From: an uncultured Ruminococcus sp.
GTDB lineage: Bacteria > Bacillota > Clostridia > Oscillospirales > CAG-272
Direction of reading: 5' to 3'
DNA: 64,000 nucleotides
Assembly: GCA_902778725.1 (NCBI GenBank)
Contig: CACYYS010000001.1
Coordinates: forward strand, 12,130-76,129
In this document: one piece after another, positions 4,152 through 33,689 of the stretch
Position numbering within the stretch: the first letter of the stretch is position 1
Layout: every line of letters starts with the position of its first letter
Made by a program: the position numbers and the translations under genes
The notes under the pieces: model-generated
The model's database searches: none
What the model saw: the letters and a program-made list of their open reading frames with translations, nothing else
What the model was told of the DNA's origin: nothing

Positions 4152-5780
4152 ATGGGAGACTTCCGGTTTTCCTCACTCCGGCTCCGGTTCCGGGACGGGG
4201 AGCGGCGGGACGCCGTCCTGCGTGAGAGCGGGCGCGTCGGCGCGCTCTCGGCCGATCTGCGGGCGGACGGAGAGGGGATCGGCCTCACCCTCGCGCCCGA
4301 GGGGGAGGCGACGCTGGAGAGCGTTTCGGCGCTCTTCGATTTCACCTTCCGGCCGGACGACCGCCTCTTCTTAAACGGCTACCAGAGCTGGACCGACAGT
4401 TATGAGCATACCGCGGGGGAGCGGATCCGTCCCCTCGGAGCGCTGCCCCGGATGCTCGACGGACGTTTCGGCTTTTCCGCCTACGGAGATTACCGCTTCA
4501 CAAAGACCGAGCGCAGGCGCGGACGGCTGCACGGCTTTTCCTACGCCTACGTCCGGCGGGGCGCGGAGTGGATCCTCTTCGGCTCCCTCGCGGAGGACAG
4601 CGGCTTTACCGTGATCCGCTTCCACACCGACCGGAACTGCATCCTGTTTGAAAAAGAGTGCGCCGGCCGCCGCCTGACCGCTCCCTACCGCGCGCTCTCC
4701 GTGCGCGTCTACCGCGGCGCGGAGGACGAGGTGTTCGACGCGTACTTTGCCGACCTCGGGATAGAAAAGACCGGCAAACGGCGCGTGGACGGCTACACGA
4801 GCTGGTACAACCGTTATCAGAACATCAGCGAGGAGAGCGTCACGGAGGATCTCGCCGGCTTTGCCGCGCAGAGCGAAAAGCCGGACTTCTTCCAGATCGA
4901 CGACGGCTATCAGACCGCCGTCGGCGACTGGCTCTCCGTCGATGAAAAAAAGTTCCCCCGCGGGATGGCGCCGATCGCGGAGAGGATCCGCGCGGCGGGC
5001 ATGACGCCGGGGATCTGGCTCGCGCCCTTTGCGGCGGAGCGCACCTCACGGCTGGTCGCCGAGCATCCCGACTGGCTGCTTCGCGGGGAGGACGGCAAGC
5101 CCGTCTTCGCCGGCGGCAACTGGTCCGGCTTCTATGCGCTCGATCTCGACCGCCCGGAGGTCGTCTCCTATCTCGAGCGGGTCTTTTCCGCCGTGATACG
5201 CGAATGGGGCTACCGGCTCCTCAAGCTCGATTTCCTCTACGCCGCCTGCCTTGTTCCGACCCCGGACGCCACGCGCGGCGAGCGGATGGCAAAGGCGGTC
5301 GACCTCCTCCTCCGGCTCACCGAGGGCGCGGAGATCCTTGCGTGCGGCGTGCCGCTCGCCTCCGTCTTCGGCAAGGTCGCCTACTGCCGGATCGGCTGCG
5401 ACGTGGCGCTCTCCTTCGACGGAGATTTCTACCTCCGTCCGATGCACCGGGAGCGCCCCTCGACCAAGTTCTCGCTCCTCAATACCCTTTACCGCCGGCA
5501 GCTGAACGGCCGCGCCTTCCTCTCGGATCCGGACGTCTTCCTTTTGCGGGACGACAATATGGAGATGACCCCGGAGGAGCGGAAGACCCTGCTCACCCTC
5601 AACGCTCTCTGCGGCGGCGTGCTCTTTACCTCCGACAACGTCGGCGCCTATTCCGACGAAAAAAAGCGCCTGCTCCGGGAGGCGAAAAAGCTTACCCCCG
5701 CCGATCTCCTCTCGGTGGAGAGGGAGAAGAAGACCGTTACCGTCTCCTATACTGGCGGAACGCTGACGCTCAAGCTCTGA
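4152..5780 (+). CDS. Alpha-galactosidase-like glycoside hydrolase (GH36/clan GH-D type)
   Basis: DGYTSWYNRYQNI...FFQIDDGYQTAVGDWLSVDEKKFPRGMAPIAERIRAAGMTPGIWLAPF and GYRLLKLDFLY are melibiase-type motifs. It starts 3 nt after the sugar symporter. Confidence 0.75.
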   Translation: MGDFRFSSLRLRFRDGERRDAVLRESGRVGALSADLRADGEGIGLTLAPEGEATLESVSALFDFTFRPDDRLFLNGYQSWTDSYEHTAGERIRPLGALPRMLDGRFGFSAYGDYRFTKTERRRGRLHGFSYAYVRRGAEWILFGSLAEDSGFTVIRFHTDRNCILFEKECAGRRLTAPYRALSVRVYRGAEDEVFDAYFADLGIEKTGKRRVDGYTSWYNRYQNISEESVTEDLAGFAAQSEKPDFFQIDDGYQTAVGDWLSVDEKKFPRGMAPIAERIRAAGMTPGIWLAPFAAERTSRLVAEHPDWLLRGEDGKPVFAGGNWSGFYALDLDRPEVVSYLERVFSAVIREWGYRLLKLDFLYAACLVPTPDATRGERMAKAVDLLLRLTEGAEILACGVPLASVFGKVAYCRIGCDVALSFDGDFYLRPMHRERPSTKFSLLNTLYRRQLNGRAFLSDPDVFLLRDDNMEMTPEERKTLLTLNALCGGVLFTSDNVGAYSDEKKRLLREAKKLTPADLLSVEREKKTVTVSYTGGTLTLKL

Positions 5781-5793: not shown

Positions 5794-5830
5794 AGCCGTC
5801 TCACGGTTCCGTGAGACGGCTTTTCTGCGT
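5794..5830. terminator. Bidirectional intrinsic terminator
   Basis: AAGCCGTCTCACGG-ttc-CGTGAGACGGCTT, with an A-run upstream and a T-run downstream. Lies between convergent genes. Confidence 0.75.
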
Positions 5831-5854
5831 TTTTTTGCCGCATGGCGAGACGCT

Positions 5855-6157
5855 TCAGCCGACGTTTTTCATGAACGAGGTCCCGAGCCAGATCAAAAGG
5901 ACCATCGAGACGGGCAGCAGGATCAGCGCGGCGGTCATGCTCCACAGCCCCGCGAGCGCGCTGAGCGCGGGGGAGAGCGAAACGAGCGCGATCACCTTTG
6001 CAAGCTGCGCCGCGTACCGCCGGGGATCCTTCGGCTTTACCGACTGTCTCGCGCGGATCGGGAGCATCTTATAGTCCTTTGTCAGCGCCAAAAGTCCGGC
6101 GTAGAGCAGGATCGCCCCCGCAAAGATCCCCATCAGGATCGAATAGCCGTATTCCAT
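5855..6157 (-). CDS. Small membrane protein (about 3 TM), probable last gene of the zinc-ribbon operon
   Basis: 100-aa ORF with a GGAGG 6 nt before the ATG at 6157. Hydrophobic segments ILMGIFAGAILLYAGLLAL, VIALVSLSPALSALAGLW and AALILLPVSMVLLIWL. No convincing terminator in the 71-nt gap after 6229. Confidence 0.6.
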   Translation of the reverse strand: MEYGYSILMGIFAGAILLYAGLLALTKDYKMLPIRARQSVKPKDPRRYAAQLAKVIALVSLSPALSALAGLWSMTAALILLPVSMVLLIWLGTSFMKNVG

Positions 6158-6228
6158 AACAGACCTCCGGAATAAGGGAAAACCGTACCGGCGCCGCGGA
6201 TCAAAGCCCGAGCCTTGCCGTGATCCGG

Positions 6229-8568
6229 TCAGTCGTCGTCTTCCAGGGAGTTTTTGATTTCGTCCGCCGCAAACGCGCCCGCGGCTTCCTTGACGCCCTC
6301 TTTTGTCACTTCGGAATCGAGCAGGTGACCGACGACCTCTCCGCCGCCTTCGCCTATGACCGCGTCTCCGACTTTCCCGCCGACCAAATCAACGGTTTTG
6401 TCGACAGCGAAGTTCAGCGCGCCCTGCTTGGCGGCCTTGTTGCCTTCTTTAAGGGCTTTTTCCAGGCTTTTGCCTCTTGCGAGAGAATCCGTTGTTGCGG
6501 CGATACCGTCGCCGGTCACGTTGGCGGTCCCTTCCGCGGCGAAGCCGACAACGCCTCCGCCCGCCCAGTCGCTCGCGTGATTCTTGGCGATCTCGGCGCT
6601 GGTTTTAACGGTCGCGGCCGACATCGCGCCCGAGAAGGATTTTTCGCCCGTGGCGACTTCCATCAACCCCTGACCGTAAGCCTTGCCGGCTTGGTAACCG
6701 TCCTTGACCAGCTTTGCGGTGCCGGTCTTATCGAACTTTTCGAGCACGTCAAGCGCAACGTCGGCGGCTTTTTCGGTCTGCTTTGCGGTCTTATAACCCG
6801 CGTCCATGTATTCCGCCCGGCCCTCGGCTTCGGCGCCTTTCTGATAATCGTCCATCTGATCTCTTATCACGGCTTTTCTGACGTCTTTTTCATCGCCGAC
6901 GAATACGCCGTGATTGGCGCCGACCTTCTTCACATAAGCGTCGTGTTCGGCGTTTTCTCTTTCCTTTTTCTCCGCGGCCTCCCGTTCGGCGCGCGCCTCG
7001 GTGCTGTAGAAGGACTCGTCCTGATTTGCGGCGCGCTGCTCCTCGGCGGCTTTTTTCGCCTGCGCCGCGTCTTTACGGATCAGGCCCGCGTTTTCGGCGC
7101 GGCTGTCAAGCGCGTCCTTCAGCTCCGTTTCGGTATAAGTCGCACCGGTCAGCGGGTTCGTATAGGTACCGTCTCCGTTTGAGACGTAGGTATTCTGTTC
7201 TCCGGTGGCGGGGTCGCGCGTTACAAGATCGCCGTCGCCGTCGCGTGTGATATAGGGCCCCAGATCGCTGTGATCCGCCGGCGCGGGCGCGTCAAGGTCC
7301 TCCGCCGCGGTCCCGGCAGCCTCCACAGCGGAGCTGCCCGCCGCGGACGCCGCGCTGCCGGCGGCTCCGCCGAGCGCGGAGCCGGCGATGCCTCCTCCCG
7401 CTCCGACGAGGACGGTCGTGACACTTACCACAACAACACCGATCGCGGATCCCGGCTGATCAAGATAATCCGGATTATGCACCAGCTTTTGCCGTATCAC
7501 ACGGTCGGCGTAGTCGATATCGCCGTCTCTGTCGAAATCCATCATATCGGGAAACGGCTGACCGTATTTGTTCGTCTGACCGTTGTGGTAGGTGAGACGG
7601 CCGTTGTACATGACGTAGGCATCGTCATCCCCTTCCTCCGCGGCGACGGGCAGCGAGAAAAACGGCGCCAGAGTCAAGCCGAACATCAGCACAAGCGCAG
7701 CGATCGCGGCGGCTTTTTTGCCCTTCCCGTTTATCAGGATCGAAGATACGATCCCGGCCGCGAGCAGTAAGGCGCCGACGGAGAAAATGATGATCGGATA
7801 TCTGGCGAAGGTGATCGGGAAAGAAACGGCGAAACCGGCCGACACACCCGTAAGGAGTCGGCTTACGGCGGTTCTCGACGGCGCTTTTCCCTTTGAAAGC
7901 TTGCCGACAAGCGTAAAAACAAGGGAGAAGAGGACGCCGCTCTGGCTGCCCGCCGCGCGTATCGCGGCGACGGCGCCGACGATCGCCGCCGCGCTGTTGA
8001 TCGGCGCGGACGTGATATTGAAGAACCAGTACAGAAGGATCCCGGCGCCGCCTCCGATCAGATACGGCGATACGGCGGAAACCCCTGTTACGGCCGCTCC
8101 CTTGAAGCCTTTTTTCATTCCCTTGAACGGATTTTGCTTATTGACGAGCGCAAGCACGAACGAGTTTACGACAGCGACGAACAGCGCTTTGCCGAAAATG
8201 CCGCCGATCGCGCCGAAGAGACCGCCGTACATCCCGCCGTTTGAATAGGTGAGCGTATAGAGGAACCTGAGCGCCGGGATATTGGCGCCGAGCCCGGACA
8301 TCAGCGAGAAAACCGTCCATATTACCGACAGCACGATGGCGGGGATCAGCTTTTTGGGGTGCTTGAAGAAATCGATGATCTGCTCCTTCCATTCGGCGAA
8401 AAATCCGGTTTTCGTCTGATTGGCGGACCCTCCTTCCCGTTTCGGTTTCTGCTGAGGCTGCCGCGTCTGCGCCTGCGGCGCGGCCGGCGCGGCCTGCGTG
8501 CCGCATACGGGGCAGAATCTTGCGCCTTCCTCCAATTCCTTGCCGCATTTTTGACAGAATTTTGCCAT
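6229..8568 (-). CDS. Zinc-ribbon / polytopic membrane / long C-terminal coiled, Ala-Gly-rich protein (779 aa), function unknown
   Basis: ORF 6229..8694 trimmed to the ATG at 8568 (MAKFCQKCGKELEEGARFCPVCG) with an AAGGAGAG RBS. It has a Q/P linker, a glycine-rich multi-TM domain, a DFDRDGDIDYAD loop, a further TM, and then about 370 aa rich in A/E/K/G. Confidence 0.8.
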   Translation of the reverse strand: MAKFCQKCGKELEEGARFCPVCGTQAAPAAPQAQTRQPQQKPKREGGSANQTKTGFFAEWKEQIIDFFKHPKKLIPAIVLSVIWTVFSLMSGLGANIPALRFLYTLTYSNGGMYGGLFGAIGGIFGKALFVAVVNSFVLALVNKQNPFKGMKKGFKGAAVTGVSAVSPYLIGGGAGILLYWFFNITSAPINSAAAIVGAVAAIRAAGSQSGVLFSLVFTLVGKLSKGKAPSRTAVSRLLTGVSAGFAVSFPITFARYPIIIFSVGALLLAAGIVSSILINGKGKKAAAIAALVLMFGLTLAPFFSLPVAAEEGDDDAYVMYNGRLTYHNGQTNKYGQPFPDMMDFDRDGDIDYADRVIRQKLVHNPDYLDQPGSAIGVVVVSVTTVLVGAGGGIAGSALGGAAGSAASAAGSSAVEAAGTAAEDLDAPAPADHSDLGPYITRDGDGDLVTRDPATGEQNTYVSNGDGTYTNPLTGATYTETELKDALDSRAENAGLIRKDAAQAKKAAEEQRAANQDESFYSTEARAEREAAEKKERENAEHDAYVKKVGANHGVFVGDEKDVRKAVIRDQMDDYQKGAEAEGRAEYMDAGYKTAKQTEKAADVALDVLEKFDKTGTAKLVKDGYQAGKAYGQGLMEVATGEKSFSGAMSAATVKTSAEIAKNHASDWAGGGVVGFAAEGTANVTGDGIAATTDSLARGKSLEKALKEGNKAAKQGALNFAVDKTVDLVGGKVGDAVIGEGGGEVVGHLLDSEVTKEGVKEAAGAFAADEIKNSLEDDD

Positions 8569-8669
8569 GATCGATCTCTCCTTTATCGGTTGTTTTTCAG
8601 GTTGCCCAATGCGAGGCGGCGTTTTTCCGGGAGAAAAGTCTTCCTTTCCGGCCGCTTCTTCCGCCCGCT

Positions 8670-9404
8670 TTACTTCAGCAGGGGCAGATCGCATTTTTTA
8701 CACCGGTCGGCCTCAACGGGATTTTTTGTTCCGCAGTTCACGCAGGCGAGATACGGCGCACGGGATTTATCGTACAGCTCATACGGGAAAGGGAACTGCG
8801 GATGATATCGGAAGCGGTCGCCGATCTCCAGGTAGTTGTACGCCCAGAGCTGCGATCCCTCGTATTCGACGATCTTCTTTTTCTTTCCGTCGGCCGTTCT
8901 CACGACGGTGATATATTCGGTGATACGCTCACGGGAATCCGAGGTTCCGTGACGGTAGGTATCGCGGGAGCTCTTGTCGATCACCGTCGCTTCGTAGGTG
9001 TTCTTTGCGCGTTCCCTGATGAAACTGAAAAGCGCGAAAACAAGGAACACCGCCGAAACGATCCCGCCGATCATCGCCGCCTGAGCGATCTCCATCTGAT
9101 CGCTGACGACGCTGTAGATCACAAAGCCGATCAGCGGTAGCGGAACGAGGAAGAAGGCGAAGACGCCCGCCGCCTTGCGGTTTTTCTTGACGGCGGCGAG
9201 GATCTCCGGGTGGTTCACCCGGTCCGAGAACCCCGGCGCGGGGATCCCCTGCCGTACGGCGCCGGTCCCGGCGCAGGCGGGCGCTCCGTACGCGGGAGCG
9301 CCGTTCGGCTGCGCCGGCGCGGCGTTTTGCGCCGCGCCGCAGTTCGGGCAGAATTTAGTGTTTTCCTCTGTTGGCGCTCCGCAGTTCTGACAGAATTTTG
9401 ACAT
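8670..9404 (-). CDS. Double zinc-ribbon membrane protein (244 aa), function unknown
   Basis: MSKFCQNCGAPTEENTKFCPNCG at the N-terminus and CVNCGTKNPVEADRCKKCD at the C-terminus. Two TM segments lie between them. AAGGAGGGA RBS before the ATG at 9404. Confidence 0.8.
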   Translation of the reverse strand: MSKFCQNCGAPTEENTKFCPNCGAAQNAAPAQPNGAPAYGAPACAGTGAVRQGIPAPGFSDRVNHPEILAAVKKNRKAAGVFAFFLVPLPLIGFVIYSVVSDQMEIAQAAMIGGIVSAVFLVFALFSFIRERAKNTYEATVIDKSSRDTYRHGTSDSRERITEYITVVRTADGKKKKIVEYEGSQLWAYNYLEIGDRFRYHPQFPFPYELYDKSRAPYLACVNCGTKNPVEADRCKKCDLPLLK

Positions 9405-9440
9405 ATCGTTCCCTCCTTGGTTCTTTCATTCTTTGGTTCC

Positions 9441-12400
9441 TTAATTCTTTGCCGGCGGGAGCGGGGGGTCCTTTGGCACATCGATTACGGATGCTGAGAA
9501 TGGCACGCTTCCGTATAACTCATTGAAAAGATATGCGAAGAAGCCGCCTTCGGCTATGATCTGTCCCGTTTTCGATATCGCGTCGGACAGCGCTTTGTTC
9601 ACGTCGACCGCGCACTCGTAGTTTTTATTGTTTACTTCAAAGTAGAACGTAACGATCAGATGACCGTCTGAGTTGAATTCAAATCCGTTCTGCGACGAAA
9701 TAAACTTGTCGTGGATCTTGGTGTCGAGTTCCACAAGTTTGTCGATCCCCATACCGAACAGACCGTCGAGGTACTTGCGAAGTATTTCCGATCTCGTCAG
9801 TCCGTCGACCGCGCGCAGATCGAGCAGCGTCGCCGACGAACCGAGATGCTTGCTGACGAACGAGCCGCACCACGCGCTCAGTTTGGCGCGGAAGCCGGGG
9901 CATTTTTTTAGCGCGGCGTCGAACAGATGACCCGCTGCAGCTTTCAGACCCGTTGCCGTCGTATCCGCGAAACCGTGGACTATCGCTCCGTAAAGATCGA
10001 ACTTGTTCTCCTCGCGCAGCGTCATATAAAAGTTCTTTATCGAAGCGAATGCGAAATACGCGCCGAGCGTATACGCCGCCTGCTTCCAGTTTGCGAAGCT
10101 GATATTGCCGGATACGAAGTTGTCGAATATCGCGAACACGTTTTTGCTGAAGTTGAAATTATCGGGGTTTACGGATTGGCCGCGCATCCAGCACGCCACT
10201 GTCTCGCCAATCGCCTCGGCGAGAAAGTCCTTCGTCGGCGATATTATCGCGTCCGCGACGGGACCGGCGTACATATTCACGAGTATCGAAAAGGCGCAGT
10301 CGCCGAAGAATTTTGCCCATTCAAGGTAATCTATGATGACGTCGTATACCTTGGCTTCGTCCTGGCTCTTCATACTCTGGATCGTCCAGTAGGTCATATA
10401 CTGGCGTACGATCCATTTGCTCGTGAGCCTCAGCTCTTCGGTCGTACAGCGCGGATCCTCGGCAAGACTTGCGAGACGTTTGAGCAGATCGTCCTTGTTT
10501 TCCGGCAGGGAGAATTTTTCGATGCGTCCTTTCAGCTTATCGTATTCCTCTTCCCATCCCGCCATCGGGTCGAAATCTTTGCCGCGCAGTCTCAGCGGTA
10601 TATCGGCTTTATATTCTTCGCCGTCATATTCTGCGGTGCAGGGAAGCAATACGATGAAGAACTTCCCGTCGTCCGGCTCGCAGAGCGTTGAATTCGGCTC
10701 GAAATCGTAGGTGAACTTTTCGTTCAGAATACCGTACGACTCTTTATATTCAAATTTCTCCGCGATCGACTGTTCCTTGTCGGCGCGCATTCCGAGCCCG
10801 CCCGCGCCCTTGAGCTTTTCAAACTTGTATTCGGCTTCCTTCGGGTCGATGATCGCCTTGTCCTTGCCGGTGTGGGCGAGCGTGAATTTGATCTCGGAAA
10901 CCTGCCACTTTTTGTCGAGATCGCCGGCGTATTCCTTTTCGTACGCCTGCACGCGGACGTATTTGACGCTGTTCTTCTTGCCCTCCTGCGTGGAGGAGAC
11001 CGTGATCCCCTCGGGATAGAGAGTCACCGTGACGTAGCCCTTGACCGGCTCCTTTTCGCCCTCGACCGCGACGCGGATCTCGAAGTTCCTGTCCTTCGGC
11101 TTCTCGAAGATATCGTGATCCGGCTCGGGCTTGGTGTTGTTCTTTACGTTCATCCGGTAGACCGCCGGCCGGTCGGTCAACTCGAACTCCACGTCAAACT
11201 CGCCCGGGTTGACGGCGGTGATGTCGGAGAGCTTGGGTGCCGTCGGCGCGTCCACTATCGCAAAGCGCTCCGTATAGGTAAATCCGTCGCCGGGGATCGC
11301 GTCGATGCCGCATCCGCTGCCGTACAGCGTCCCGTCGGATTCGTCGATGAATTTGAGCTGAGGACCGTCGACCACCCGGAAAACGACGGTGTTGGTAAAG
11401 CTGCCGCCCTCTCCCGTAAAGGTAAAGGTGATGCTCGCCGTGTCCTTATCGTATTCTTTCGGCACGCTGACCGTCGCCTCGCAGTAGCGTCCGGCGAGCG
11501 CGGCGCCGTGCACGGTCATGCCGTCGGCGGAGACTGCGATCAGCGCGGTCAGATCGCCGCGGTCCCGCTCGGCCGTCCCCTCGACCTCCGCCATCCTCGC
11601 GCGGATCACCACGGGCTTGTCGCCGCCGCGTCTTATCGCGTCGCCGAAGTCCTTCTGCACGTACATCTTGTACGTTTTCTGCGTTCTCTTTTTATCGTCG
11701 GCGCCGCCGGACGCCGCCGCCGCGCCCGCGACCGCCGCGCCGCCGCCCAAGACGCCGATCACGATCGCCGCGGGGACGGATACGCCGCCGTCCTCGCCGG
11801 GGTCCGTCTCGGCGTGCTTGGTAACGCCCGCGATATTGAAGCCCTCGTAAGTGATCGGTTCGTCCGCTTTGACCTCCGGCATCATACTGTACAGAGTCGG
11901 CGCCATGGCGACAGTCGCCTTCCATTTTTCCATCATATCGTTGTACAGATCCACCGCTTCTTTTTTGGGGCTTACCAGGCCGATCTTGTGGCCGGTCAGC
12001 CGGTTAAGCAGCACATGATTTACGGTATATGCGTCAGAGATCCCGGGAATGCGGGTATAGTAGTAGTATTCGTAGGTTTCCTGAGTCGATTCGTACTTCA
12101 ATTCCTCGATCAGCGTAGAACCGCCTTCGTGGTACTTGAGTCTTTTATAGGTTTCCTTGGGTGAATCGTCCCATAAGCTGTGGTAGGCGACAAGGATACT
12201 GTCTCCGCCGCCCTGGCGCTCCACGGTTATGGTATTTCTCTCGTCTGTATTAGCCTCTTTTTCCTTATTCCATTCTTCGTACTGATTCTGCGCCGCATCC
12301 TCCATTGTGGGGGTGTTGCCGTATTTCATATGATAGAGGGTGATATGCGGCTGATTCGCCACCACGTAGCCGTAACAATACGCTTCCGTTTCCCCCGGCT

Positions 12401-12881
12401 GAAGACCCTTGTTCTCCCTGCTGAAATCCTCGTAGTAGTATTGATACTGATATTCGTTGATATAGTCGTCGACCATATTGTCCTTGACGTCATTGCGCCC
12501 GGCCGAGAAGTCCGCAACGTAATATCTGTACTTGCGGCCCGGCGTATACAGGCTCGTATATGCGGAGGGGAGTTTATAGGTGAGATGGACCTTCTGCTCA
12601 AACAGGCGGTACCCCGGTTTCTCCTTGGCGTCCCGGGCGTTGAACAGATAGTAAAGCAAAAGCTTCTCGCCTGTATCCGTAACCTTGTCCGGGTACGTGT
12701 CGCCCCAGTAGAAGTCCAGTTCAAAATTGTTCCGCGTTTCCGCCCTGACTTCATAATTGGGATTGTTGATGAATTTGTCATAATTGAAGAGGTCCGCCGC
12801 AAGCGAGGGGAATGCGAGATACGGGACGGTCAGGAACGCCGCGAACGCGCCGCACAACAGTTTCAGCAGGATCTTTTTCAT
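9441..12881 (-). CDS. Large exported/membrane protein (1146 aa), no recognisable domain
   Basis: ORF 9441..13244 trimmed to the ATG at 12881, which gives a signal peptide MKKILLKLLCGAFAAFLTVPYLAFPSLAADL. Mid-chain TM VPAAIVIGVLGGGAAVAGAAAA is followed by DDKKRTQK. The ATGA start/stop overlap with the upstream gene supports this start. Confidence 0.8.
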   Translation of the reverse strand: MKKILLKLLCGAFAAFLTVPYLAFPSLAADLFNYDKFINNPNYEVRAETRNNFELDFYWGDTYPDKVTDTGEKLLLYYLFNARDAKEKPGYRLFEQKVHLTYKLPSAYTSLYTPGRKYRYYVADFSAGRNDVKDNMVDDYINEYQYQYYYEDFSRENKGLQPGETEAYCYGYVVANQPHITLYHMKYGNTPTMEDAAQNQYEEWNKEKEANTDERNTITVERQGGGDSILVAYHSLWDDSPKETYKRLKYHEGGSTLIEELKYESTQETYEYYYYTRIPGISDAYTVNHVLLNRLTGHKIGLVSPKKEAVDLYNDMMEKWKATVAMAPTLYSMMPEVKADEPITYEGFNIAGVTKHAETDPGEDGGVSVPAAIVIGVLGGGAAVAGAAAASGGADDKKRTQKTYKMYVQKDFGDAIRRGGDKPVVIRARMAEVEGTAERDRGDLTALIAVSADGMTVHGAALAGRYCEATVSVPKEYDKDTASITFTFTGEGGSFTNTVVFRVVDGPQLKFIDESDGTLYGSGCGIDAIPGDGFTYTERFAIVDAPTAPKLSDITAVNPGEFDVEFELTDRPAVYRMNVKNNTKPEPDHDIFEKPKDRNFEIRVAVEGEKEPVKGYVTVTLYPEGITVSSTQEGKKNSVKYVRVQAYEKEYAGDLDKKWQVSEIKFTLAHTGKDKAIIDPKEAEYKFEKLKGAGGLGMRADKEQSIAEKFEYKESYGILNEKFTYDFEPNSTLCEPDDGKFFIVLLPCTAEYDGEEYKADIPLRLRGKDFDPMAGWEEEYDKLKGRIEKFSLPENKDDLLKRLASLAEDPRCTTEELRLTSKWIVRQYMTYWTIQSMKSQDEAKVYDVIIDYLEWAKFFGDCAFSILVNMYAGPVADAIISPTKDFLAEAIGETVACWMRGQSVNPDNFNFSKNVFAIFDNFVSGNISFANWKQAAYTLGAYFAFASIKNFYMTLREENKFDLYGAIVHGFADTTATGLKAAAGHLFDAALKKCPGFRAKLSAWCGSFVSKHLGSSATLLDLRAVDGLTRSEILRKYLDGLFGMGIDKLVELDTKIHDKFISSQNGFEFNSDGHLIVTFYFEVNNKNYECAVDVNKALSDAISKTGQIIAEGGFFAYLFNELYGSVPFSASVIDVPKDPPLPPAKN

Positions 12882-13810
12882 GCTTTCGCCCCCTTTCCGA
12901 ATTTGACGACGCCCGTCGCCTGCAGGATCATTATCACGCCGCCGCCGGCAAACAGCAGACCGCCGAAAATGAGCAGAATAAGCTTGACGCCGGTCATTCC
13001 GAGCAAAGCCGCCGCCGCAAAACCGGCGGCAAGCCCGCGGACGATCCCCGAAACGTTCGGGTGCGACGCGTTTTTGCTCTTTGTGAACGATCCGAGCAGC
13101 TGCCGTAAAAATCCGCCGGACAGCGCCGCTCTCGCCGCGAGGAACGCCGCCGCGATCCCGCCCATAAAAGAGGCGCGGGTCGCCCCGCCGGAGATGAATA
13201 AGTAGAGAAGCATTGCCGCGCCGATCCCGCAGAGATACGCCCACAGCGTATCAAGCGAGACGCCGAAGGCGCCCTTGACCGTCTCCCCGAAGGACCGCTT
13301 CACGCCGCCCTTGCGGGTAAAGAGCCCGATCAGCGAGACGAGCGCGCCGGCGAAGATCCCTTTGCCGACGATCCCGCCGACGGCGCCGATGACGCCGCCC
13401 GACGTCCCGCCGCCCGCAAAGGTGAGGAAGGAGAGGATCCGCGTCGGAAACGGGTTTACTCCGCACGCCTGCAGAACGTTCAAAACGAGCCACACGAGAG
13501 CCAGCGCGAGCGCGGGGATCAGACGCTTCGGGTCCTTTACCGCCGCGCCGACAGAGGAGAAGAACGATTTCAGACCCGCTCCGATCACTCCGCCCGGTTC
13601 CGAAATCGCGTTCGATACGGCTCTCGCCGCGGTATCGGCGACCGCGCCGCACGCCGCCTCGCCCGAAAAAGCCGGAGCGGTAAAGTTGAATTTCTGCGGC
13701 TCCGGCGGCTGCTGCGCCGGGCCGTCCGGTACGCCGCCGATCGCGCTCCCGCATTTGCCGCAGAAGCGCGCGGTATCCGCCAGCTCGTTTCCGCATTTCG
13801 GACAGAACAT
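12878..13810 (-). CDS. Zinc-ribbon / glycine-rich polytopic membrane protein (310 aa), function unknown
   Basis: MFCPKCGNELADTARFCGKCG, then a Pro-rich linker and a multi-TM domain paralogous to aa 68-300 of the 6229..8568 product. GGAGG RBS before the ATG at 13810. Confidence 0.85.
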   Translation of the reverse strand: MFCPKCGNELADTARFCGKCGSAIGGVPDGPAQQPPEPQKFNFTAPAFSGEAACGAVADTAARAVSNAISEPGGVIGAGLKSFFSSVGAAVKDPKRLIPALALALVWLVLNVLQACGVNPFPTRILSFLTFAGGGTSGGVIGAVGGIVGKGIFAGALVSLIGLFTRKGGVKRSFGETVKGAFGVSLDTLWAYLCGIGAAMLLYLFISGGATRASFMGGIAAAFLAARAALSGGFLRQLLGSFTKSKNASHPNVSGIVRGLAAGFAAAALLGMTGVKLILLIFGGLLFAGGGVIMILQATGVVKFGKGAKA

Positions 13811-13847
13811 AAAACGCCTCCTCTATGATCAGACAGATTATAAAAAT

Positions 13848-13876
13848 ATTATACTAAAGGGAACGGAACGTCTCAA
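13848..13876 (-). promoter_or_regulatory. Candidate SigA-type promoter of the zinc-ribbon operon
   Basis: Minus strand reads TTGAGA (13871-13876), a 17-nt spacer, then TATAAT (13848-13853), about 40 nt upstream of the ATG at 13810. Confidence 0.55.
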
Positions 13877-13889
13877 GGATTGCCTCGGC

Positions 13890-13904
13890 ATTGTCATTGA
13901 CAAT
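13890..13904. promoter_or_regulatory. Perfect 15-bp palindrome ATTGTCAtTGACAAT in the divergent control region
   Basis: Read directly. It lies between the two divergent promoters, so it is a candidate operator. Confidence 0.5.
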
Positions 13905-13920
13905 TTTTCAGGCAAAACCC

Positions 13921-13949
13921 TTGATTTCCGGAAGGATCCGGGCTATACT
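13921..13949 (+). promoter_or_regulatory. Candidate promoter of the double-HTH regulator
   Basis: TTGATT (13921-13926), 17 nt, TATACT (13944-13949). The ATG at 13984 follows a GGAGAAGGGG RBS. Confidence 0.55.
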
Positions 13950-13983
13950 GGACGTGACCGACAGAAACGGAAAGGAGAAGGGG

Positions 13984-15795
13984 ATGTTCCGGCAAAGGAT
14001 AAAAGAGTTACTCTCTCTGCTCGGGGTCGGCTCGGCCGACCTTGCGCGCCTCGCGGGGTGCGACCAGTCGCATATCAGCCGGATGGTCAGCGGCGCCCGC
14101 GTACCGAAAAACGGCGGCGCCGGCGCGTGGCGCCTGGTGCAGGGCGTCTATCTCTGCGCCGACGAAAAGGGGATGGTCAACGCGCTCTGCGACCTTGTTT
14201 CCTGCGGCGACCGGGGAGACGCCGACGCCGTCCGGCGGGCGGTGATGCTTTATCTCTACAAGGGGGAGGCGCCGCGCGGGGCGGGAGCGCCGAGGGAGAA
14301 GACGCCCTACCGCGCCTTCGGGGAGAGGCTCGGCGCCGTCATGGATCTGACCGGGCTCTCGAACATCCGCCTCGGCAAAGCCCTCAATCTCGATCCCTCC
14401 TACGTCAGCCGCTTCCGCAACGGCTTCCGCTCGCCGAAAGCGAATCCGAAGACGATGAGCGATCTCTGCCTCTTTCTGCTCGACCGGACCTTTGAACAGG
14501 GCAAGGAGGGGGAGCTGGCGCGCCTGACGGGCGAGCCGGTCGAAGAGTTTTCCGACCGGGAGAAGGCGGCGGAGATCCTCTATCTCTGGCTTTACAGCAA
14601 CGACGGAGGGGACAGCGGCCCCCTCGTGGAAAGGTTGATCGACCAGATCGGCTTCTTCTCCGCAAAGGTCAAAAAGCCGCCGCTCTCCTTTGAGGCGGCG
14701 GCGGACACGGAGATCCTCGCGGATACGGCGGAGACCTATTACGGAAGGGAGGGACTGCGGCGCGCGGTCATCCGCTTCCTCGGCAGCGTCATCCGGCGGG
14801 GGGAGCGGGAGCTCTTCCTCTATTCCGACCAGAATATGGACTGGATGGTCTCCGATCCTCTTTTCCGCGCAAAATGGGCGACGCTGATGGCGCTCTCCGT
14901 CGCCGGAGGCGTGAAGATCACCATCATCCACAACATCAACCGCGATCTCTCCGAGATGGCGTCGGCGATCGAGAGCTGGCTGCCGCTCTATCCCTCCGGC
15001 AGGATCCGTTCCTACTACTGCAAAACGCCGCACCGGCCGCGTTTTTCCGCCACGCTTTTCCTCTGCCCGGGCTGCGCCTGCATCTTTGGCTGCAACGTGA
15101 TCGGCGCGGAGGACGGGACGGGGATGTACCGCTACGATACCGACCCCGCGCAGCTTGCGGCGCACGGGGCGGCGTACCGCGAGCTGCTCTCCCGCTCCGG
15201 GGAACTGGTCAGGGTGTACCGGACGTCGGATCTCACGTATCCGGAACGGCGGGACGGTTCCGCGTTCGCCGTTTTCGGCGGCGCGCTCTCCCTCGCCACG
15301 ATGCCGGAGGAGGTCCTGCGTTCCGCGCTCGGGCGCAGCGGAGCGGACGAAGAGAGGAAAAAATACCTTCTCCGGCTCCGGGAGGAACGCTTCGCTTTTC
15401 TGAAGCGGAGCGCGGAGCGGGGCGGTTTTCACGAATACGCGCCCGTGGCGGCGGCGGAGGCGCTCCCGGGCGGCTCGGTCCGGATGGATCTGCCGGAGCT
15501 TTCCGTTTCCTACACGCCGCGGGAGTACGCGGCGCACGTCCGCCGCGTCATCGGGATCTCGGAGGAGCTGGTCGGCTACCGGTTCTATATTCTGCCGGAA
15601 GCGCCGTTCGAGGACGTGAAGGTCCTTATTTCCGACAGCGCCGTCGCCGTTTCCCGCCTGCGGGAGCCCTACCTCACCTTCCTCTTCGAGCATCCGGATC
15701 TCTGCCGCGCCTTTCTCGCTTACGCCGCGCGGATCCGGGATCAGTACAGCCAGGACAAGCTGACGACAAAGCGTATCCTCGAACGCTTCCTTTGA
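13984..15795 (+). CDS. Transcriptional regulator with two XRE-type HTH modules and a large unassigned C-terminal domain (603 aa)
   Basis: ORF 13891..15795 trimmed to the ATG at 13984 (MFRQRIKELL). HTH1 is LGVGSADLARLAGCDQSHISRMVSGARVP and HTH2 is TGLSNIRLGKALNLDPSYVSRFRNGFRSP. Confidence 0.75.
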   Translation: MFRQRIKELLSLLGVGSADLARLAGCDQSHISRMVSGARVPKNGGAGAWRLVQGVYLCADEKGMVNALCDLVSCGDRGDADAVRRAVMLYLYKGEAPRGAGAPREKTPYRAFGERLGAVMDLTGLSNIRLGKALNLDPSYVSRFRNGFRSPKANPKTMSDLCLFLLDRTFEQGKEGELARLTGEPVEEFSDREKAAEILYLWLYSNDGGDSGPLVERLIDQIGFFSAKVKKPPLSFEAAADTEILADTAETYYGREGLRRAVIRFLGSVIRRGERELFLYSDQNMDWMVSDPLFRAKWATLMALSVAGGVKITIIHNINRDLSEMASAIESWLPLYPSGRIRSYYCKTPHRPRFSATLFLCPGCACIFGCNVIGAEDGTGMYRYDTDPAQLAAHGAAYRELLSRSGELVRVYRTSDLTYPERRDGSAFAVFGGALSLATMPEEVLRSALGRSGADEERKKYLLRLREERFAFLKRSAERGGFHEYAPVAAAEALPGGSVRMDLPELSVSYTPREYAAHVRRVIGISEELVGYRFYILPEAPFEDVKVLISDSAVAVSRLREPYLTFLFEHPDLCRAFLAYAARIRDQYSQDKLTTKRILERFL

Positions 15796-15811
15796 AAAAT
15801 GCGAAAAAAAG

Positions 15812-15848
15812 AAAAGGGACAGGAGAAATATCCTGTCCTTTTCTGTTT
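15812..15848. terminator. Bidirectional intrinsic terminator
   Basis: AAAGGGACAGGA-gaaata-TCCTGTCCTTTT between convergent genes. Confidence 0.7.
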
Positions 15849-15857
15849 TCCGGAGCG

Positions 15858-17510
15858 TTATCTCCGCCCGGTCTTGACCAGCTGCGCCGAGAGCGCGGCA
15901 AAGACGGCGCCGAGCGCGAGGGAGAGGAGGGCGGAGCCGAGCGCCGCGGGGAGCATCGCCTCAAAGACGATCCCGAGGATCGCGGGGATCGCGATCGGCG
16001 CGAGACCGAAGTAGAGGAAGGAGACGGTGACGACCGATTTGAAGGTCTTGGCGACTCCCTCCGGGATCGCAAAATCGAGGAAAACGCCGACCGACGACGC
16101 GTAAAAGTTGACGCCGAGGGAGAGGAGGAGCCAGACGAGCGCCTCGGCGGGGAAGCCGAGCGCCGCCGCCGTGACGAGATAGGCGGGGAGGAGGTCGAGC
16201 AGGTTCTTCACGAATCCGGCGCAGAGCGACCAGGCGATCTTGGAGAGGGGGGAGGCGGGGACGAGGAAGAACCAGTCCTTCCGGCTGTCCTCGGCAAAGG
16301 GATTGCCGAGGGAGGTGTAGAAGGAGACGAAGGAGACGAGCAGTCCGAAGGGGAGGAAGCTGCCCGAGCGGATTACGGTCTTTTCGAGGAAGATCGCCCC
16401 GGCGGCGATCACGAGATAGGTGATCGCGGATTTGGTGAAAAAGCCGAGCGTCGCAAAGCGGCGGCGGTTGTAGAGGGCTTTGGCAAAGTAGGCGCGCGCC
16501 CCCTCGCCGGCGGGCAGCCTGTCGCGCAGGATCCTGTCGCCCCGGTCCGGTTTTTTGCGTTTGACGATGCCGCCCTCCGCCGCGGAAGCGAGCGCGGCGG
16601 CCGTCTCCTCGCTTTTCGCCTGCGCGTCCTCGTAGAAATCCGCCTTGATCCGCCAGATGAAGAAACAGACGGCGGGGAGGAAGAGGACGAGCGCTGCCAA
16701 AAAGAGGAGCGCGGGGAGGGTCTCTCCGGCGGCGGCGTGATAGCAGAGCCCCTTCAGCCATCCGGCGACGGGGATCAGCCGCGCCGGCAGCGTGCAGAAG
16801 AAGCGGCCGCCCGCCTCGAGCAGCCCGGCCATCTCAAACGGGATGCCGGAAGTCTTCCACCAGAGGAGGAAGGGGAAGAGGACGAGCGCGATCACGCCGT
16901 AGACGGTCCAGCGGACGTACTTTTTGACGCGGGGGTAGGTGGAGGCGAGGGTGTAGATGAAGACGCCGAGCAGTTTGGAATAAAAGAGGAGGAAGAGCCA
17001 CGCGCCGAAGAGCGCGACCCCCGCCATGGGCGGGAGATCCATCCCCCGGACGATGTTCGGGATCTGGAACGCCATATAGCCGCTGGCAAAGACCGCGGCG
17101 CCGAGCTGCAGCAGGAGCCGGAACATCAGGACCGACTGCGGCTTTGCGGGCGCGGGGAAGAGGAGCGTGGTATCGGCGGGCAGGAAGATCTGGCTCCCGC
17201 TCTTGTCTCCGGTGAGGGCGTCGATCACAAGGACGACGAGCGCGATCCCGCCGACGGCGAGCTCAAGGAGGATCAGCCCCTCCTCGCGCGAGAGGCCGGA
17301 AGGATCCTCCGGCTCCGGCTCGGTCTCGACTTCCTCCGGGGGCTCGCCGATCCCTTCTTCGACCGCCCCGCCGAGGAAGGAGAGCCCCACCCCGAGCAGG
17401 ATGCCGAAGAGGAAGCAGGCGAGGATGAAGACGATCACCCACGTCTTGAAAAGCTTTTTCAGCTGATTTTTGAAGGAATGGAGCGCGTAGAAAAAGAAGA
17501 GACGCGTCAT
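15858..17510 (-). CDS. Putative ABC exporter membrane component (multi-TM, 550 aa)
   Basis: MTRLFFFYALHSFKNQLKKLFKTWVIVFIL... with many TM segments. ATGA overlap with the upstream ATPase gene. Confidence 0.7.
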   Translation of the reverse strand: MTRLFFFYALHSFKNQLKKLFKTWVIVFILACFLFGILLGVGLSFLGGAVEEGIGEPPEEVETEPEPEDPSGLSREEGLILLELAVGGIALVVLVIDALTGDKSGSQIFLPADTTLLFPAPAKPQSVLMFRLLLQLGAAVFASGYMAFQIPNIVRGMDLPPMAGVALFGAWLFLLFYSKLLGVFIYTLASTYPRVKKYVRWTVYGVIALVLFPFLLWWKTSGIPFEMAGLLEAGGRFFCTLPARLIPVAGWLKGLCYHAAAGETLPALLFLAALVLFLPAVCFFIWRIKADFYEDAQAKSEETAAALASAAEGGIVKRKKPDRGDRILRDRLPAGEGARAYFAKALYNRRRFATLGFFTKSAITYLVIAAGAIFLEKTVIRSGSFLPFGLLVSFVSFYTSLGNPFAEDSRKDWFFLVPASPLSKIAWSLCAGFVKNLLDLLPAYLVTAAALGFPAEALVWLLLSLGVNFYASSVGVFLDFAIPEGVAKTFKSVVTVSFLYFGLAPIAIPAILGIVFEAMLPAALGSALLSLALGAVFAALSAQLVKTGRR

Positions 17511-18271: not shown

Positions 18272-18281
18272 AAAAACTCCT

Positions 18282-30684: not shown

Positions 30685-30867
30685 GGCGCGGCTCCTTTCC
30701 GTTTTTGCTTGTTTACAGATCCAGCATAGCAGAAAAAATCGGGTTTTGCAAGTTTCGGGAGAAATCTTTTGTTTTTCTTAAACTTTCTTTAAATAGTTTC
30801 CTGTTTTTTTTTGCTTTCTCCCGCTTGCCACGGAAAAAACGCGATGCTGAGACGCTGCGGGCCGGGG

Positions 30868-30934
30868 GGAGGATATGAACACGCTCCCCCGAGCGAAAGG
30901 AAAAAGCCGCCCAAGCGTACCGGGCGGCTTTTTT
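30868..30934 (-). repeat. Modular hairpin repeat, partial copy C (left flank of the low-GC island)
   Basis: GGAGGATATGAACACGCTCCCCCGAGCGAAAGGAAAAAGCCGCCCAAGCGTACCGGGCGGCTTTT. Near-identical to 33839-33903. Confidence 0.85.
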
Positions 30935-30990
30935 GCAATGGATAGTGCGTTCGCAGCAAGACAAACAGAAGAAGAAAAAGAGAAAGCGAG

Positions 30991-32124: not shown

Positions 32125-32142
32125 TTTTTTACAAGATAAGAT

Positions 32143-33255: not shown

Positions 33256-33328
33256 ATCCTGCTTTTCTCCGCATTTGTTTTTTTGTCTGCAGATTGCGGT
33301 TTTGTTGTGTTCAAATGAGATCTTTTTC

Positions 33329-33357: not shown

Positions 33358-33406
33358 TATCTTTTTTACAGATATTCTAAAATAAAACAAAAAGGAGGCG
33401 AGGTAT

Positions 33407-33622: not shown

Positions 33623-33689
33623 AAGCCGGCCTGTACGCGGGTCGGCTTTTTCTTTTAAAAAAAACGGCAGGAGCAAGTTCAATGTCGCA

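What the first reader, a model, noticed from the sequence alone, without database searches (positions are those of the whole stretch)
9441..12881. 1146-aa orphan protein with a signal peptide and one mid-chain TM, translationally coupled to a zinc-ribbon gene
Seen: the start at 12881 gives a classical signal peptide (MKKILLKLLCGAFAAFLTVPYLAFPSLA|ADL) and overlaps the upstream stop (ATGA). A Tyr/Glu/Lys-rich region of about 330 aa follows. Next comes a TM (VPAAIVIGVLGGGAAVAGAAAA) followed by DDKKRTQK, which fits positive-inside. The remaining ~750 aa contain beta-rich stretches (FTFTGEGGSFTNTVVFRVVDGPQLKF; YVTVTLYPEGITVSS) and an amphipathic or hydrophobic C-terminal third. I recognise no catalytic or adhesin motif.
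Inference: a bitopic protein with large domains on both sides of the membrane could couple the cytoplasmic ribbon proteins to the cell surface.
Basis: partly seen in the sequence, partly recalled or inferred. Interest (0 to 1): 0.6.

Follow-up and report, generated by a model that had tools for sequence, protein, structure and literature searches.

The report
Mosaic membrane protein paired with zinc-ribbon partner
The 1146-aa gene is real and has the predicted signal peptide and single membrane span, but it is not an orphan: it belongs to a large, unnamed family from uncultured rumen and gut Clostridia that is almost always paired with, and sometimes fused to, a zinc-ribbon six-span membrane protein, and that swaps its outer domain by recombination; its function is still unknown.

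Summary
Observation confirmed. ORF 9441-12881(-) encodes 1146 aa with an SP-like N-terminus, a Tyr/Glu-rich ectodomain, one Gly/Ala-rich TM with positive-inside flanks, and an ATGA overlap with the upstream Zn-ribbon gene.

"Orphan" is wrong. There are 98 clusters at 90% identity and 577 representative clusters at 50%. All are unnamed and without Pfam or NCBIfam hits, and all genome loci found are from uncultured MAGs, mostly rumen/gut Clostridia.

The upstream 310-aa protein (Zn ribbon plus six glycine-zipper TM segments) lies immediately upstream in 30 of 34 complete loci, with the 4-nt overlap in 26. It is fused to the target in 7 family members.

The AF2 model puts a confident tandem Ig-like β-sandwich array (residues 400-770) and a poorly modelled all-helical domain on the predicted cytoplasmic side.

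The gene is a three-part mosaic. Ectodomains fall into at least 10 unrelated classes, dS gradients run in opposite directions against two relatives, and dN/dS is about 0.03-0.3. Paralogues within one genome carry different ectodomains.

Best reading (inferred): a two-protein transmembrane receptor or coupling complex with an exchangeable outer head. Ligand and output are unknown. Interest is moderate.

The parts
13848..13876 (-). Sigma-70-like promoter TTGAGA-17-TATAAT ahead of the four-gene operon
   Evidence: 11/12 consensus match. It is followed by GAGGAGG and the ATG of the 310-aa gene.
12878..13810 (-). Partner gene, 310 aa: N-terminal Zn ribbon plus six hydrophobic glycine-zipper segments (motif FLTFAnGGmsGG..GaiGGiiGKG), predicted N-in/C-in
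   Evidence: Zn_Ribbon_1 at 36.2 bits against a cut-off of 25. Family-averaged hydropathy and conserved motifs. Exact gene call on record. Immediately upstream of the target in 30/34 loci. Fused to the target in 7 proteins.
12795..12881 (-). Target residues 1-29: signal-peptide-like segment (MKKILLKLLCGAFAAFLTVPYLAFPSLA|A); no lipobox
   Evidence: KD 19-mer peak of 1.95. SP-like in 78/85 members. Ala at -1 is near-invariant. It corresponds to an internal TM in the fusion proteins.
11829..12794 (-). Target residues 30-351: Tyr/Glu-rich, exchangeable ectodomain cassette
   Evidence: Composition. At least 10 unrelated classes among 85 members. No Pfam hit in any class. It is 85-91% identical to P0003/4/5, whose cores are about 60% identical. 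dS is 0.19 against saturated in the tail.
11685..11828 (-). Target residues 352-399: conserved acidic juxtamembrane motif PGEDGGVSVP, Gly/Ala-rich TM and basic stop-transfer
   Evidence: Column identity of about 0.75 starts sharply at about residue 357. Charge bias. Together with the first beta-sandwich it is 64% identical to the otherwise unrelated P0091.
10572..11684 (-). Target residues 400-770: about four tandem Ig-like beta-sandwich domains, predicted cytoplasmic
   Evidence: AF2 pLDDT about 85-95. Foldseek matches to cadherin, titin, ICAM, invasin and S-layer arrays at E 1e-8 to 1e-5, with about 10% identity and low TM-scores.
9444..10571 (-). Target residues 771-1146: all-alpha domain with invariant G860/D861/A863/P882/K884, a small beta unit and the conserved C-terminal PKDPPLPP; the stop codon is 9441-9443
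   Evidence: Secondary structure and low confidence. Invariant columns. No structural neighbour, best E 1.3. It occurs as distinct alleles: 98% identical to L058 and 50% to L060.
8670..9404 (-). Third operon gene, 244 aa: Zn ribbon, a hydrophobic region (about residues 80-135, read by eye as two TM segments), a weak DUF2500-like region and a C-terminal Zn ribbon
   Evidence: Pfam. Strong SD upstream. Homologues lie directly downstream of the target in L012, L015, L016, L027, L040, L058 and L059.
6229..8568 (-). Fourth operon gene, 779 aa: a paralogue of the partner module fused to an SP-like TM, a short ectodomain, a Gly/Ala TM and a charged cytoplasmic tail (same layout as partner plus target, but unrelated sequence after the partner module)
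   Evidence: 30% identity to the 310-aa protein, E 7e-28. No similarity to the target. Layout read from the translation. The 779-aa gene call is on record. Counterparts of about 860 aa in L001, L002 and L021.
13984..15795 (+). Divergently transcribed putative regulator with two XRE-type HTH motifs and an unknown C-terminal domain of about 400 aa (ORF from 13891; probable start MFRQRIKE at 13984)
   Evidence: HTH_31 and HTH_3 hits. PHROG repressor hits. Homologues lie divergently upstream in 9 related loci.

Best explanation
The gene encodes a type-I bitopic membrane protein: signal peptide, outer domain, one Gly/Ala-rich TM, then a cytoplasmic region of about 750 aa. It is one subunit of a two-protein membrane complex whose other subunit is the upstream Zn-ribbon six-TM glycine-zipper protein. 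The conserved juxtamembrane-TM-first-Ig module is the likely docking element that packs against the partner's TM bundle. The outer domain is an exchangeable recognition head. The cytoplasmic Ig-like array and helical domain form the conserved scaffold or output side, next to the partner's Zn ribbon. Functionally it most resembles a modular transmembrane receptor or coupling device present as a repertoire with different heads. Shown: gene structure, family, pairing and fusion, mosaic recombination, purifying selection. Inferred: topology, physical complex, docking through the TM, ligand binding and signal or force transmission. Ligand and output are unknown.
For: Architecture and topology: two hydrophobic segments, an AxA-type cleavage motif, charge of -3.1 before and +3.0 after the TM across 85 members, and 78/85 SP-like N-termini. 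The partner has six hydrophobic segments and a basic C-terminus, so N-in/C-in places the fused SP-like segment in the in-to-out orientation. Complex with the partner: immediately upstream in 30/34 complete loci with a 4-nt overlap in 26. The pairing is retained at 28% identity and in the Acholeplasmataceae loci. There are 7 independent fusion proteins, and one of them recurs at full length on several contigs. Docking module: conservation begins abruptly at residue ~357, with the TM itself about 77% column-identical. Residues 352-511 are 64% identical to P0091, whose remaining sequence is unrelated and which also sits next to a partner homologue. Exchangeable head: at least 10 unrelated ectodomain classes. 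Ecto and core identities are discordant: 91 vs 50% against L060, and 20 vs 98% against L058. dS gradients run in opposite directions and dN/dS is 0.03-0.3. Paralogues in one genome have different heads on similar cores, for example 82% core against ~25% ecto in Tb.RUG.188. Stable chromosomal gene: flanks are housekeeping genes, and there are no relatives in the phage, plasmid or viral collections.
Against: No interaction, ligand or output has been demonstrated. AF2 did not model the TM as a helix (pLDDT <50), and no dedicated topology predictor was available. Tandem Ig-like arrays are more typical of extracellular proteins. No signalling domain (kinase, cyclase, DNA-binding or sigma/anti-sigma) is detectable in any of the four operon proteins apart from the Zn ribbons. 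The helical domain has no structural neighbour and is poorly modelled. Two complete loci lack an adjacent partner; both are in multi-copy genomes.
Confidence: 0.5

Rival explanations
1. Surface adhesin or structural anchor. The outer domain binds plant fibre, host glycans or other cells, and the large cytoplasmic part together with the partner simply anchors it firmly in the membrane, with no signal being transmitted.
For: The ectodomains are aromatic-rich and acidic (Tyr 11.5%), as in many carbohydrate-binding modules. The hosts are rumen/gut fibre degraders, and several loci lie near CAZyme genes: Melibiase, CBM9, GH123, GH31 and Dockerin. The heads come in variable classes.
Against: No adhesin, CBM, SLH, Big or LPXTG signature occurs in any ectodomain class or member. 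An anchor would not need about 750 highly conserved cytoplasmic residues with invariant charged positions. The CAZyme neighbours differ from locus to locus, and these genomes are CAZyme-rich anyway.
Confidence: 0.17
2. Conflict system: phage exclusion, abortive infection or kin discrimination. The polymorphic head recognises a phage receptor-binding protein or a neighbour's surface, and the cytoplasmic domain together with the glycine-zipper partner carries out a membrane-level response.
For: Both gene ends are shuffled by recombination. Genomes carry several paralogues with different heads. The taxonomic spread is patchy and includes Acholeplasmataceae. Glycine-zipper TM bundles are a feature of channel formers (my own knowledge; motif). 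One locus lies near a DUF4368 recombinase-associated gene.
Against: There are no PADLOC or PHROG hits for the target or partner beyond the Zn ribbon. The family is not found in phages, plasmids or IMG/VR. Flanks are housekeeping genes and syntenic among relatives, not defence islands. dN/dS of ~0.24 in the ectodomain gives no average signal of positive selection.
Confidence: 0.18
3. Regulated proteolysis. The helix-poor Gly/Ala TM and the conserved PGEDGG juxtamembrane motif are cleavage sites. Ligand binding triggers shedding and then intramembrane cleavage that releases the 750-aa cytoplasmic region. This is a sub-type of the receptor model.
For: The TM is unusually conserved, rich in helix-destabilising Gly, and not modelled as a helix. 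The extracellular juxtamembrane motif is near-invariant. There is a loose analogy with RsgI and RseA type substrates (my own knowledge).
Against: No protease gene is linked to the locus. The partner has no conserved His or Asp catalytic pattern and no Rhomboid or S2P Pfam hit. The released fragment has no recognisable effector domain.
Confidence: 0.08
4. The topology is misread. The 364-394 segment is a flexible Gly/Ala linker, and the whole mature protein, including the Ig-like array, is extracellular and forms an S-layer-like or fibre protein.
For: Foldseek neighbours include S-layer proteins (SbsB, Sap), invasin and cadherins. AF2 gives no helix for the segment.
Against: The segment has a KD 19-mer mean of 2.04 and is followed by a basic cluster conserved across the family. 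The fusion proteins keep the same segment order, which fits an in-out-in path. There is no SLH, LPXTG or other wall-anchoring signal. The fold matches are generic (TM-score ~0.1, ~10% identity).
Confidence: 0.07

Closest known systems
RsgI-type anti-sigma sensors of cellulolytic Clostridia (functional analogy only, from my own knowledge)
   Same: Several paralogues per genome share a conserved TM/cytoplasmic part and differ in an exchangeable extracellular sensing domain. The hosts are fibre-degrading Clostridia.
   Different: There is no RsgI_N or any anti-sigma domain and no adjacent sigI-like gene. The orientation is opposite (N-out here, N-in in RsgI). The cytoplasmic region is about 750 aa of Ig-like and helical domains, and an obligatory six-TM Zn-ribbon partner is present.
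Zn_Ribbon_1 (PF13240) membrane proteins of Firmicutes, such as those annotated 'zinc ribbon domain-containing protein'
   Same: The partner and the two downstream operon proteins carry this N-terminal ribbon above Pfam's cut-off, and NCBI names them that way.
   Different: The target has no ribbon, except in rare fusions. The ribbon is a small and variable appendage, with none detected by Pfam in some partners and up to four copies in others. It says nothing about function. The six-TM glycine-zipper module is not in Pfam.
Tandem Ig-like / E-set arrays (cadherin, titin, invasin, SbsB and Sap S-layer proteins)
   Same: Residues 400-770 fold as about four consecutive beta-sandwiches, with Foldseek E values down to 1e-8.
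   Different: Identity is about 10% and TM-scores are 0.1-0.3. There is no sequence-family match. The array is predicted to be cytoplasmic rather than extracellular.
Mosaic surface or specificity genes that diversify by cassette exchange (phage tail fibres, polymorphic toxins, HsdS)
   Same: The gene has discordant segment histories and unrelated alternative cassettes on a conserved core.
   Different: There is no toxin, immunity, LXG, RHS or tail-fibre domain. The family is not on mobile elements. The variable cassette is N-terminal and extracellular.

Membership tests
   No Pfam or NCBIfam hit for the window protein, for 42 diverse members or for 10 ectodomain classes. The C-terminus is ...PKDPPLPPAKN, with no LPXTG followed by a hydrophobic tail. 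Only generic fold-level Ig similarity was found.
Sec signal peptide (type I) / bitopic N-out C-in membrane protein | Basic n-region, hydrophobic h-region, small residues at -3/-1; a second hydrophobic span obeying positive-inside | tested here: met
   The n-region is MKK..K, the h-region has KD 1.95, and the cleavage motif is S-L-A|A. Ala at -1 in >=90% of members. 78/85 members are SP-like, and the charge is -3.1 before and +3.0 after the TM. These are heuristics only; SignalP and DeepTMHMM were not available and cleavage was not tested.
Bacterial lipoprotein | Lipobox [LVI][ASTVI][GAS]C at the end of the signal peptide | tested here: not met
   The only Cys in the signal peptide is C10, in the context K-L-L-C. 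Position -1 is Leu and the Cys lies too close to the N-terminus.
Zn_Ribbon_1 (PF13240) - partner protein | CxxC-x(n)-CxxC ribbon scoring above the Pfam gathering threshold | tested here: met
   36.2 bits against a cut-off of 25 for the 310-aa protein, 36.7 for the 244-aa protein and 34.6 for the 779/821-aa protein. The target itself has no ribbon.
RsgI / anti-sigma transmembrane sensors | N-terminal cytoplasmic anti-sigma domain (RsgI_N or zf-HC2) and an adjacent cognate sigma factor gene | tested here: not met
   No such Pfam domains occur in any operon protein. No sigma-factor gene is among the neighbours annotated here or in L001-L005, L061 and L062.
Polymorphic toxin systems | N-terminal secretion or trafficking domain, a variable C-terminal toxin domain, and a downstream immunity gene | tested here: not met
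   No LXG, RHS, WXG or toxin domains were found. The variable cassette is N-terminal and extracellular. The C-terminal domain is predicted to be cytoplasmic, and the downstream genes are Zn-ribbon membrane proteins.
Diversity-generating retroelement (DGR) target protein | A nearby reverse transcriptase and a template/variable repeat pair | tested here: not met
   The only repeats in 5800-16000 are the three paralogous Zn-ribbon coding segments and short GC-rich matches. Variation comes from whole-cassette replacement with dN/dS ~0.24.
Known anti-phage defence systems (PADLOC-DB 2.0) | An HMM match of any component to a catalogued defence protein | tested here: not met
   No families matched the target, the partner, the 244-aa protein or the 779-aa protein. 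Only weak HTH matches were found for the divergent regulator.
Rhomboid or other intramembrane protease (for the six-TM partner) | Conserved catalytic Ser-His (GxSG ... H) or HExxH/LDG motifs in TM segments; a Pfam match | tested here: not met
   A GxSGG-like motif exists, but no conserved His appears in the family consensus and there is no Rhomboid or S2P Pfam hit.

The most novel reading that the evidence does not exclude
The pair defines a previously unrecognised class of modular two-protein transmembrane systems in anaerobic Firmicutes. A Zn-ribbon six-TM glycine-zipper hub accepts interchangeable single-pass subunits, of which at least three kinds share the layout SP, ectodomain, Gly/Ala TM and cytoplasmic domain: the target family, the P0091 family and the fused 779-aa type. 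The outer heads are swapped by recombination to retune what the cell recognises outside (polysaccharide, phage or neighbouring cell). The Ig-like array and helical domain would then be a new kind of cytoplasmic output module.
Probability: 0.3. Interest if true: 0.7.

Novelty: new variant of a known kind. Interest (0 to 1): 0.5.

Why it matters
Rumen and gut Clostridia that have never been cultured carry hundreds of versions of this large, strongly conserved gene pair, often several per genome, yet it has no name, no Pfam model and no solved or confidently modelled relative. If it is a receptor repertoire with exchangeable heads, it would be a new route by which fibre-degrading anaerobes sense or attach to their surroundings. 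It would also give the very common but functionally obscure N-terminal Zn-ribbon membrane proteins of Firmicutes a concrete partner and context. Even without a function, the family deserves a domain model: juxtamembrane-TM-Ig docking module, Ig-like array, helical GD...P.K domain, and the partner's glycine-zipper six-TM module. The conserved pairing and the fusions make a testable prediction of a heteromeric complex.

Tried and rejected
(1) Direct annotation: Pfam, NCBIfam, PADLOC, PHROGs, PDB sequences (single sequence and family profile), and a relaxed Pfam scan of 42 diverse members gave nothing beyond Zn ribbons in fusions.

(3) A second large homology search with the family profile added no new members or names. 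The ectodomain-only search found one fragment, so the cassette was not seen in any other architecture; that search scored only 368 candidates.

(4) DGR or phase-variation explanation for ectodomain diversity: no template/variable or invertible repeats. Rejected in favour of cassette recombination.

(5) Mobile-element origin: no relatives in phages, plasmids or IMG/VR.

(6) Lipoprotein: no lipobox.

(7) The longer 1267-aa GTG-initiated ORF (9441-13244) was rejected. It overlaps the partner gene, the ATG at 12881 has the SD and the signal peptide, and the 1146-aa product is the one on record.

(8) Literature searches for Zn-ribbon, glycine-zipper or transmembrane systems found nothing relevant.

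(9) CAZyme linkage was considered as a functional clue. The neighbours differ between loci, so it is treated as probable coincidence.


Full report

Yes, apart from the word "orphan". The minus-strand ORF ending at 9441 can be read from a GTG at 13244 (1267 aa), but that extension overlaps the upstream gene. The ATG at 12881 is preceded by an SD-like AAAGGGGG and overlaps the upstream stop as ATGA. The 1146-aa product is exactly the protein on record in public assemblies (P0001).

The N-terminus MKKILLKLLCGAFAAFLTVPYLAFPSLA|ADL has a basic n-region, a hydrophobic core (KD 1.95) and S-L-A at -3 to -1. It has no lipobox. Residues 30-351 are Tyr 11.5% and Glu 9.4%. The only other strong hydrophobic segment is 364-394 (KD 2.04). 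It is preceded by ETDPGEDGG and followed by DDKKRTQKTYK.

Across 85 aligned family members, 78 have an SP-like N-terminus and most have exactly two hydrophobic segments. The net charge averages -3.1 in the 15 residues before the TM and +3.0 in the 20 residues after it. SignalP and DeepTMHMM were not available, so topology remains a well-supported inference. AF2 left the Gly/Ala-rich TM unmodelled (pLDDT <50).

**2. It is not an orphan**

A search of 5.8 billion clustered proteins gave 98 clusters. Most are 1040-1190 aa and cover the C-terminal ~69% of the query. An exhaustive profile search of 1.84 billion 50%-identity representatives gave 577 proteins at E<=1e-3 and 316 at E<=1e-30. Where a source gives a name, it is "hypothetical protein". 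None of the full-length members has a precomputed Pfam domain.

All 52 loci found in GTDB species representatives come from uncultured MAGs. They are mostly rumen or gut Clostridia (Oscillospiraceae, Ruminococcus, Acutalibacteraceae, Saccharofermentans), with a few Acholeplasmataceae, Haloplasmataceae and Bacilli. That scan used only two peptide patterns, so divergent members in cultured organisms could have been missed. Several genomes hold two or three copies. The family is absent from the phage, plasmid and IMG/VR collections.

**3. Anatomy**

Conservation changes abruptly at about residue 357. The ectodomain is gappy, with ~0.2 column identity. Everything from PGEDGGVSVPAAIVIGVLG onward sits at 0.6-0.77, including the TM itself, and the extreme C-terminus PKDPPLPP is conserved.

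An AF2 model built on the family alignment has a mean pLDDT of 70.7. It gives:
- a confident run of about four β-sandwich domains at residues 400-770 (pLDDT ~85-95);
- an all-α region at 776-1051 with very long helices (pLDDT 55-85, then <50);
- a small β unit at 1075-1093;
- a mixed β/α ectodomain of moderate confidence.

Foldseek against PDB and BFVD returns only generic tandem Ig-like arrays: RET CLD, cadherins, titin, ICAM, invasin, SbsB/Sap, and phage Ig-decorated proteins. Identity is ~10% and TM-scores are low. The helical domain modelled on its own is poor (pLDDT 59.7) and has no neighbour (best E 1.3). It nevertheless carries the densest set of invariant residues (G860, D861, A863, P882, K884). 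Pfam, NCBIfam, PADLOC, PHROGs and PDB sequence or profile searches are all negative, including a relaxed Pfam scan of 42 diverse members.

**4. The partner**

The upstream 310-aa protein has an N-terminal Zn_Ribbon_1 (36.2 bits). It is followed by six family-conserved hydrophobic segments with a glycine-zipper signature (FLTFAnGGmsGG..GaiGGiiGKG) and a basic C-terminus, which implies N-in/C-in.

Using my own ORF calls and phmmer on the fetched loci, I examined 34 complete loci with at least 1 kb of upstream sequence:
- 30 have the partner immediately upstream, 26 of them with the same 4-nt stop/start overlap;
- 2 have it downstream;
- 2 have none, and both of those are in multi-copy genomes.

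The pairing persists at 28% target identity (P0088, P0089) and in the Acholeplasmataceae loci.

Seven of ~215 full-length family proteins are natural fusions with this layout: Zn ribbon, six-TM module, SP-like TM, ectodomain, conserved TM, conserved core. One fusion cluster recurs at full length on several independent contigs, so the fusions are not assembly artefacts. In the fusions the target's "signal peptide" is simply the next TM, which fits the in-out-in path.

Residues 352-511 of the target (juxtamembrane motif, TM and first β-sandwich) are 64% identical to P0091, a 1425-aa protein that is otherwise unrelated and also sits beside a partner homologue. I therefore take this module to be the partner-docking element. 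This is an inference.

**5. The operon**

A TTGAGA-17-TATAAT promoter at 13876-13848 and strong SDs frame four co-directional genes of 310, 1146, 244 and 779 aa.

The 244-aa protein has a Zn ribbon at each end and a hydrophobic region between them that I read as two TM segments. Its homologues follow the target in many loci.

The 779-aa protein begins with a paralogue of the partner module (30% identity, E 7e-28). It continues with an SP-like TM, a short ectodomain, a Gly/Ala TM and a charged tail. This is the same layout as partner plus target in one chain, with no sequence similarity to the target.

A double-HTH (XRE-type) protein is transcribed divergently here and in 9 related loci. Beyond these genes the flanks differ from locus to locus and are ordinary chromosomal genes.

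**6. Mosaic evolution**

The ectodomains of the 85 members fall into at least 10 mutually unrelated classes, none with a Pfam hit. Segment identities to the window protein are discordant:

| Locus | Ectodomain | TM-D1 | D2-D4 | Helical | Tail | Partner |
|---|---|---|---|---|---|---|
| L060 (P0005) | 91% | 85% | 74% | 50% | 32% | 67% |
| L058 (P0006) | 20% | 83% | 85% | 98% | 94% | 55% |

Synonymous divergence shows the same pattern independently of selection. Against L060, dS rises 0.19, 0.60, 1.03, 2.43 and then saturates from the 5' to the 3' end. Against L058 it falls from saturated through 1.16, 0.62 and 0.42 to 0.25. dN/dS is 0.03-0.31 in every segment.

The window gene is therefore an intragenic recombinant, and every part of it, including the ectodomain, is under purifying selection. 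No DGR-type or invertible repeats are present. Paralogues within one genome carry different heads on similar cores; in Tb.RUG.188 the core is 82% identical and the ectodomain ~25%.

**7. Interpretation**

What is shown:
- a real, expressed-looking gene in a four-gene operon;
- membership of a large unnamed family;
- obligate pairing and occasional fusion with a Zn-ribbon six-TM protein;
- a sharply bounded conserved TM-plus-cytoplasmic core;
- cassette exchange of the outer domain, and also of the helical tail.

What is inferred:
- N-out/C-in topology;
- a heteromeric membrane complex docked through the Gly/Ala TM and first Ig domain;
- an outer recognition head;
- a cytoplasmic scaffold or output.

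The closest functional analogy is a repertoire of transmembrane sensors with exchangeable heads, like the RsgI paralogues of cellulolytic Clostridia. No defining feature of that family or any other named family is met (see the membership table).

The rivals cannot be excluded with the present tools. They are a pure adhesin or anchor, a conflict or kin-recognition system, a proteolytically released cytoplasmic fragment, and a misread topology. They are ranked with their refuting experiments in the rival explanations.

**8. Verdict**

The interpretation that the protein couples the ribbon proteins to the surface is partly supported: the coupling to the ribbon gene is strong, but the partner is itself a polytopic membrane protein and the purpose of the coupling is unknown.

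On novelty, this is an undescribed family and gene-pair architecture built from familiar parts. I file it as a new variant of a known kind (a modular single-pass receptor-like membrane protein with an accessory polytopic subunit) rather than as categorically new, because no new mechanism has been demonstrated. Interest is 0.5.

Noticed in passing
window 30000-34000: A low-GC island (GC 0.46-0.47 against ~0.62 for the rest of the window). It carries a PDDEXK_4 nuclease (32143-33495, minus strand), a 377-aa protein with an Rrn7/TFIIB-type Zn ribbon (30991-32124, minus strand) and an unannotated 388-aa ORF (29518-30684, minus strand). It may be a horizontally acquired or defence-type insertion and appears unrelated to the operon studied.
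   Followed up: partly
window 15858-18319 (-) and 14874-17960 (+): An ABC exporter pair lies beyond the divergent regulator: a PF16962 ABC_export permease (550 aa) and an ABC_tran ATPase (270 aa). The 1028-aa plus-strand ORF that overlaps them has no family hit and looks like a spurious antisense ORF of this high-GC DNA.
   Followed up: no
window 18282-19304 (-): A YhcG-type PDDEXK nuclease (DUF1016_N plus YhcG_C) sits next to the ABC exporter.
   Followed up: no
window 2334-4148 (+): An MFS_2 sugar transporter carries an N-terminal DUF4234 domain and is followed by a Melibiase-family gene (4152-5780). Melibiase, CBM9, GH123 and GH31 genes also occur near the family in other loci, but not consistently.
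   Followed up: partly
L058 556-2175: In this relative the partner protein is 539 aa and carries four tandem N-terminal Zn ribbons before the six-TM module. In L062 the partner has no Pfam-detectable ribbon. The number of ribbons is therefore variable, from none to four.
   Followed up: partly
L058 6377-7006 and L059 4748-5371: A conserved membrane protein of about 208 aa with no Pfam hit follows the 244-aa-type gene in these loci, in the position where the window has the 779-aa gene. It may be an alternative fourth component.
   Followed up: no
window 8497-8568, 9333-9404, 13745-13816: The only DNA repeat family in the operon region is the three Zn-ribbon coding starts of the 779-, 244- and 310-aa genes (61-71% identical over 72 nt). 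This reflects paralogy of the ribbons.
   Followed up: yes
L044 (JAEEOC010000141.1): One family locus sits in a MAG labelled Dehalococcoidales, on a 6-kb contig with coverage 0.69. This is probably a binning contaminant rather than a real occurrence outside Firmicutes.
   Followed up: no
P0087 (638 aa): One hit pairs a 57%-identical fragment of the family (26% of the query) with a Ribosomal_L19 Pfam domain (PF01245). It is probably a chimeric gene call or a misassembly.
   Followed up: no
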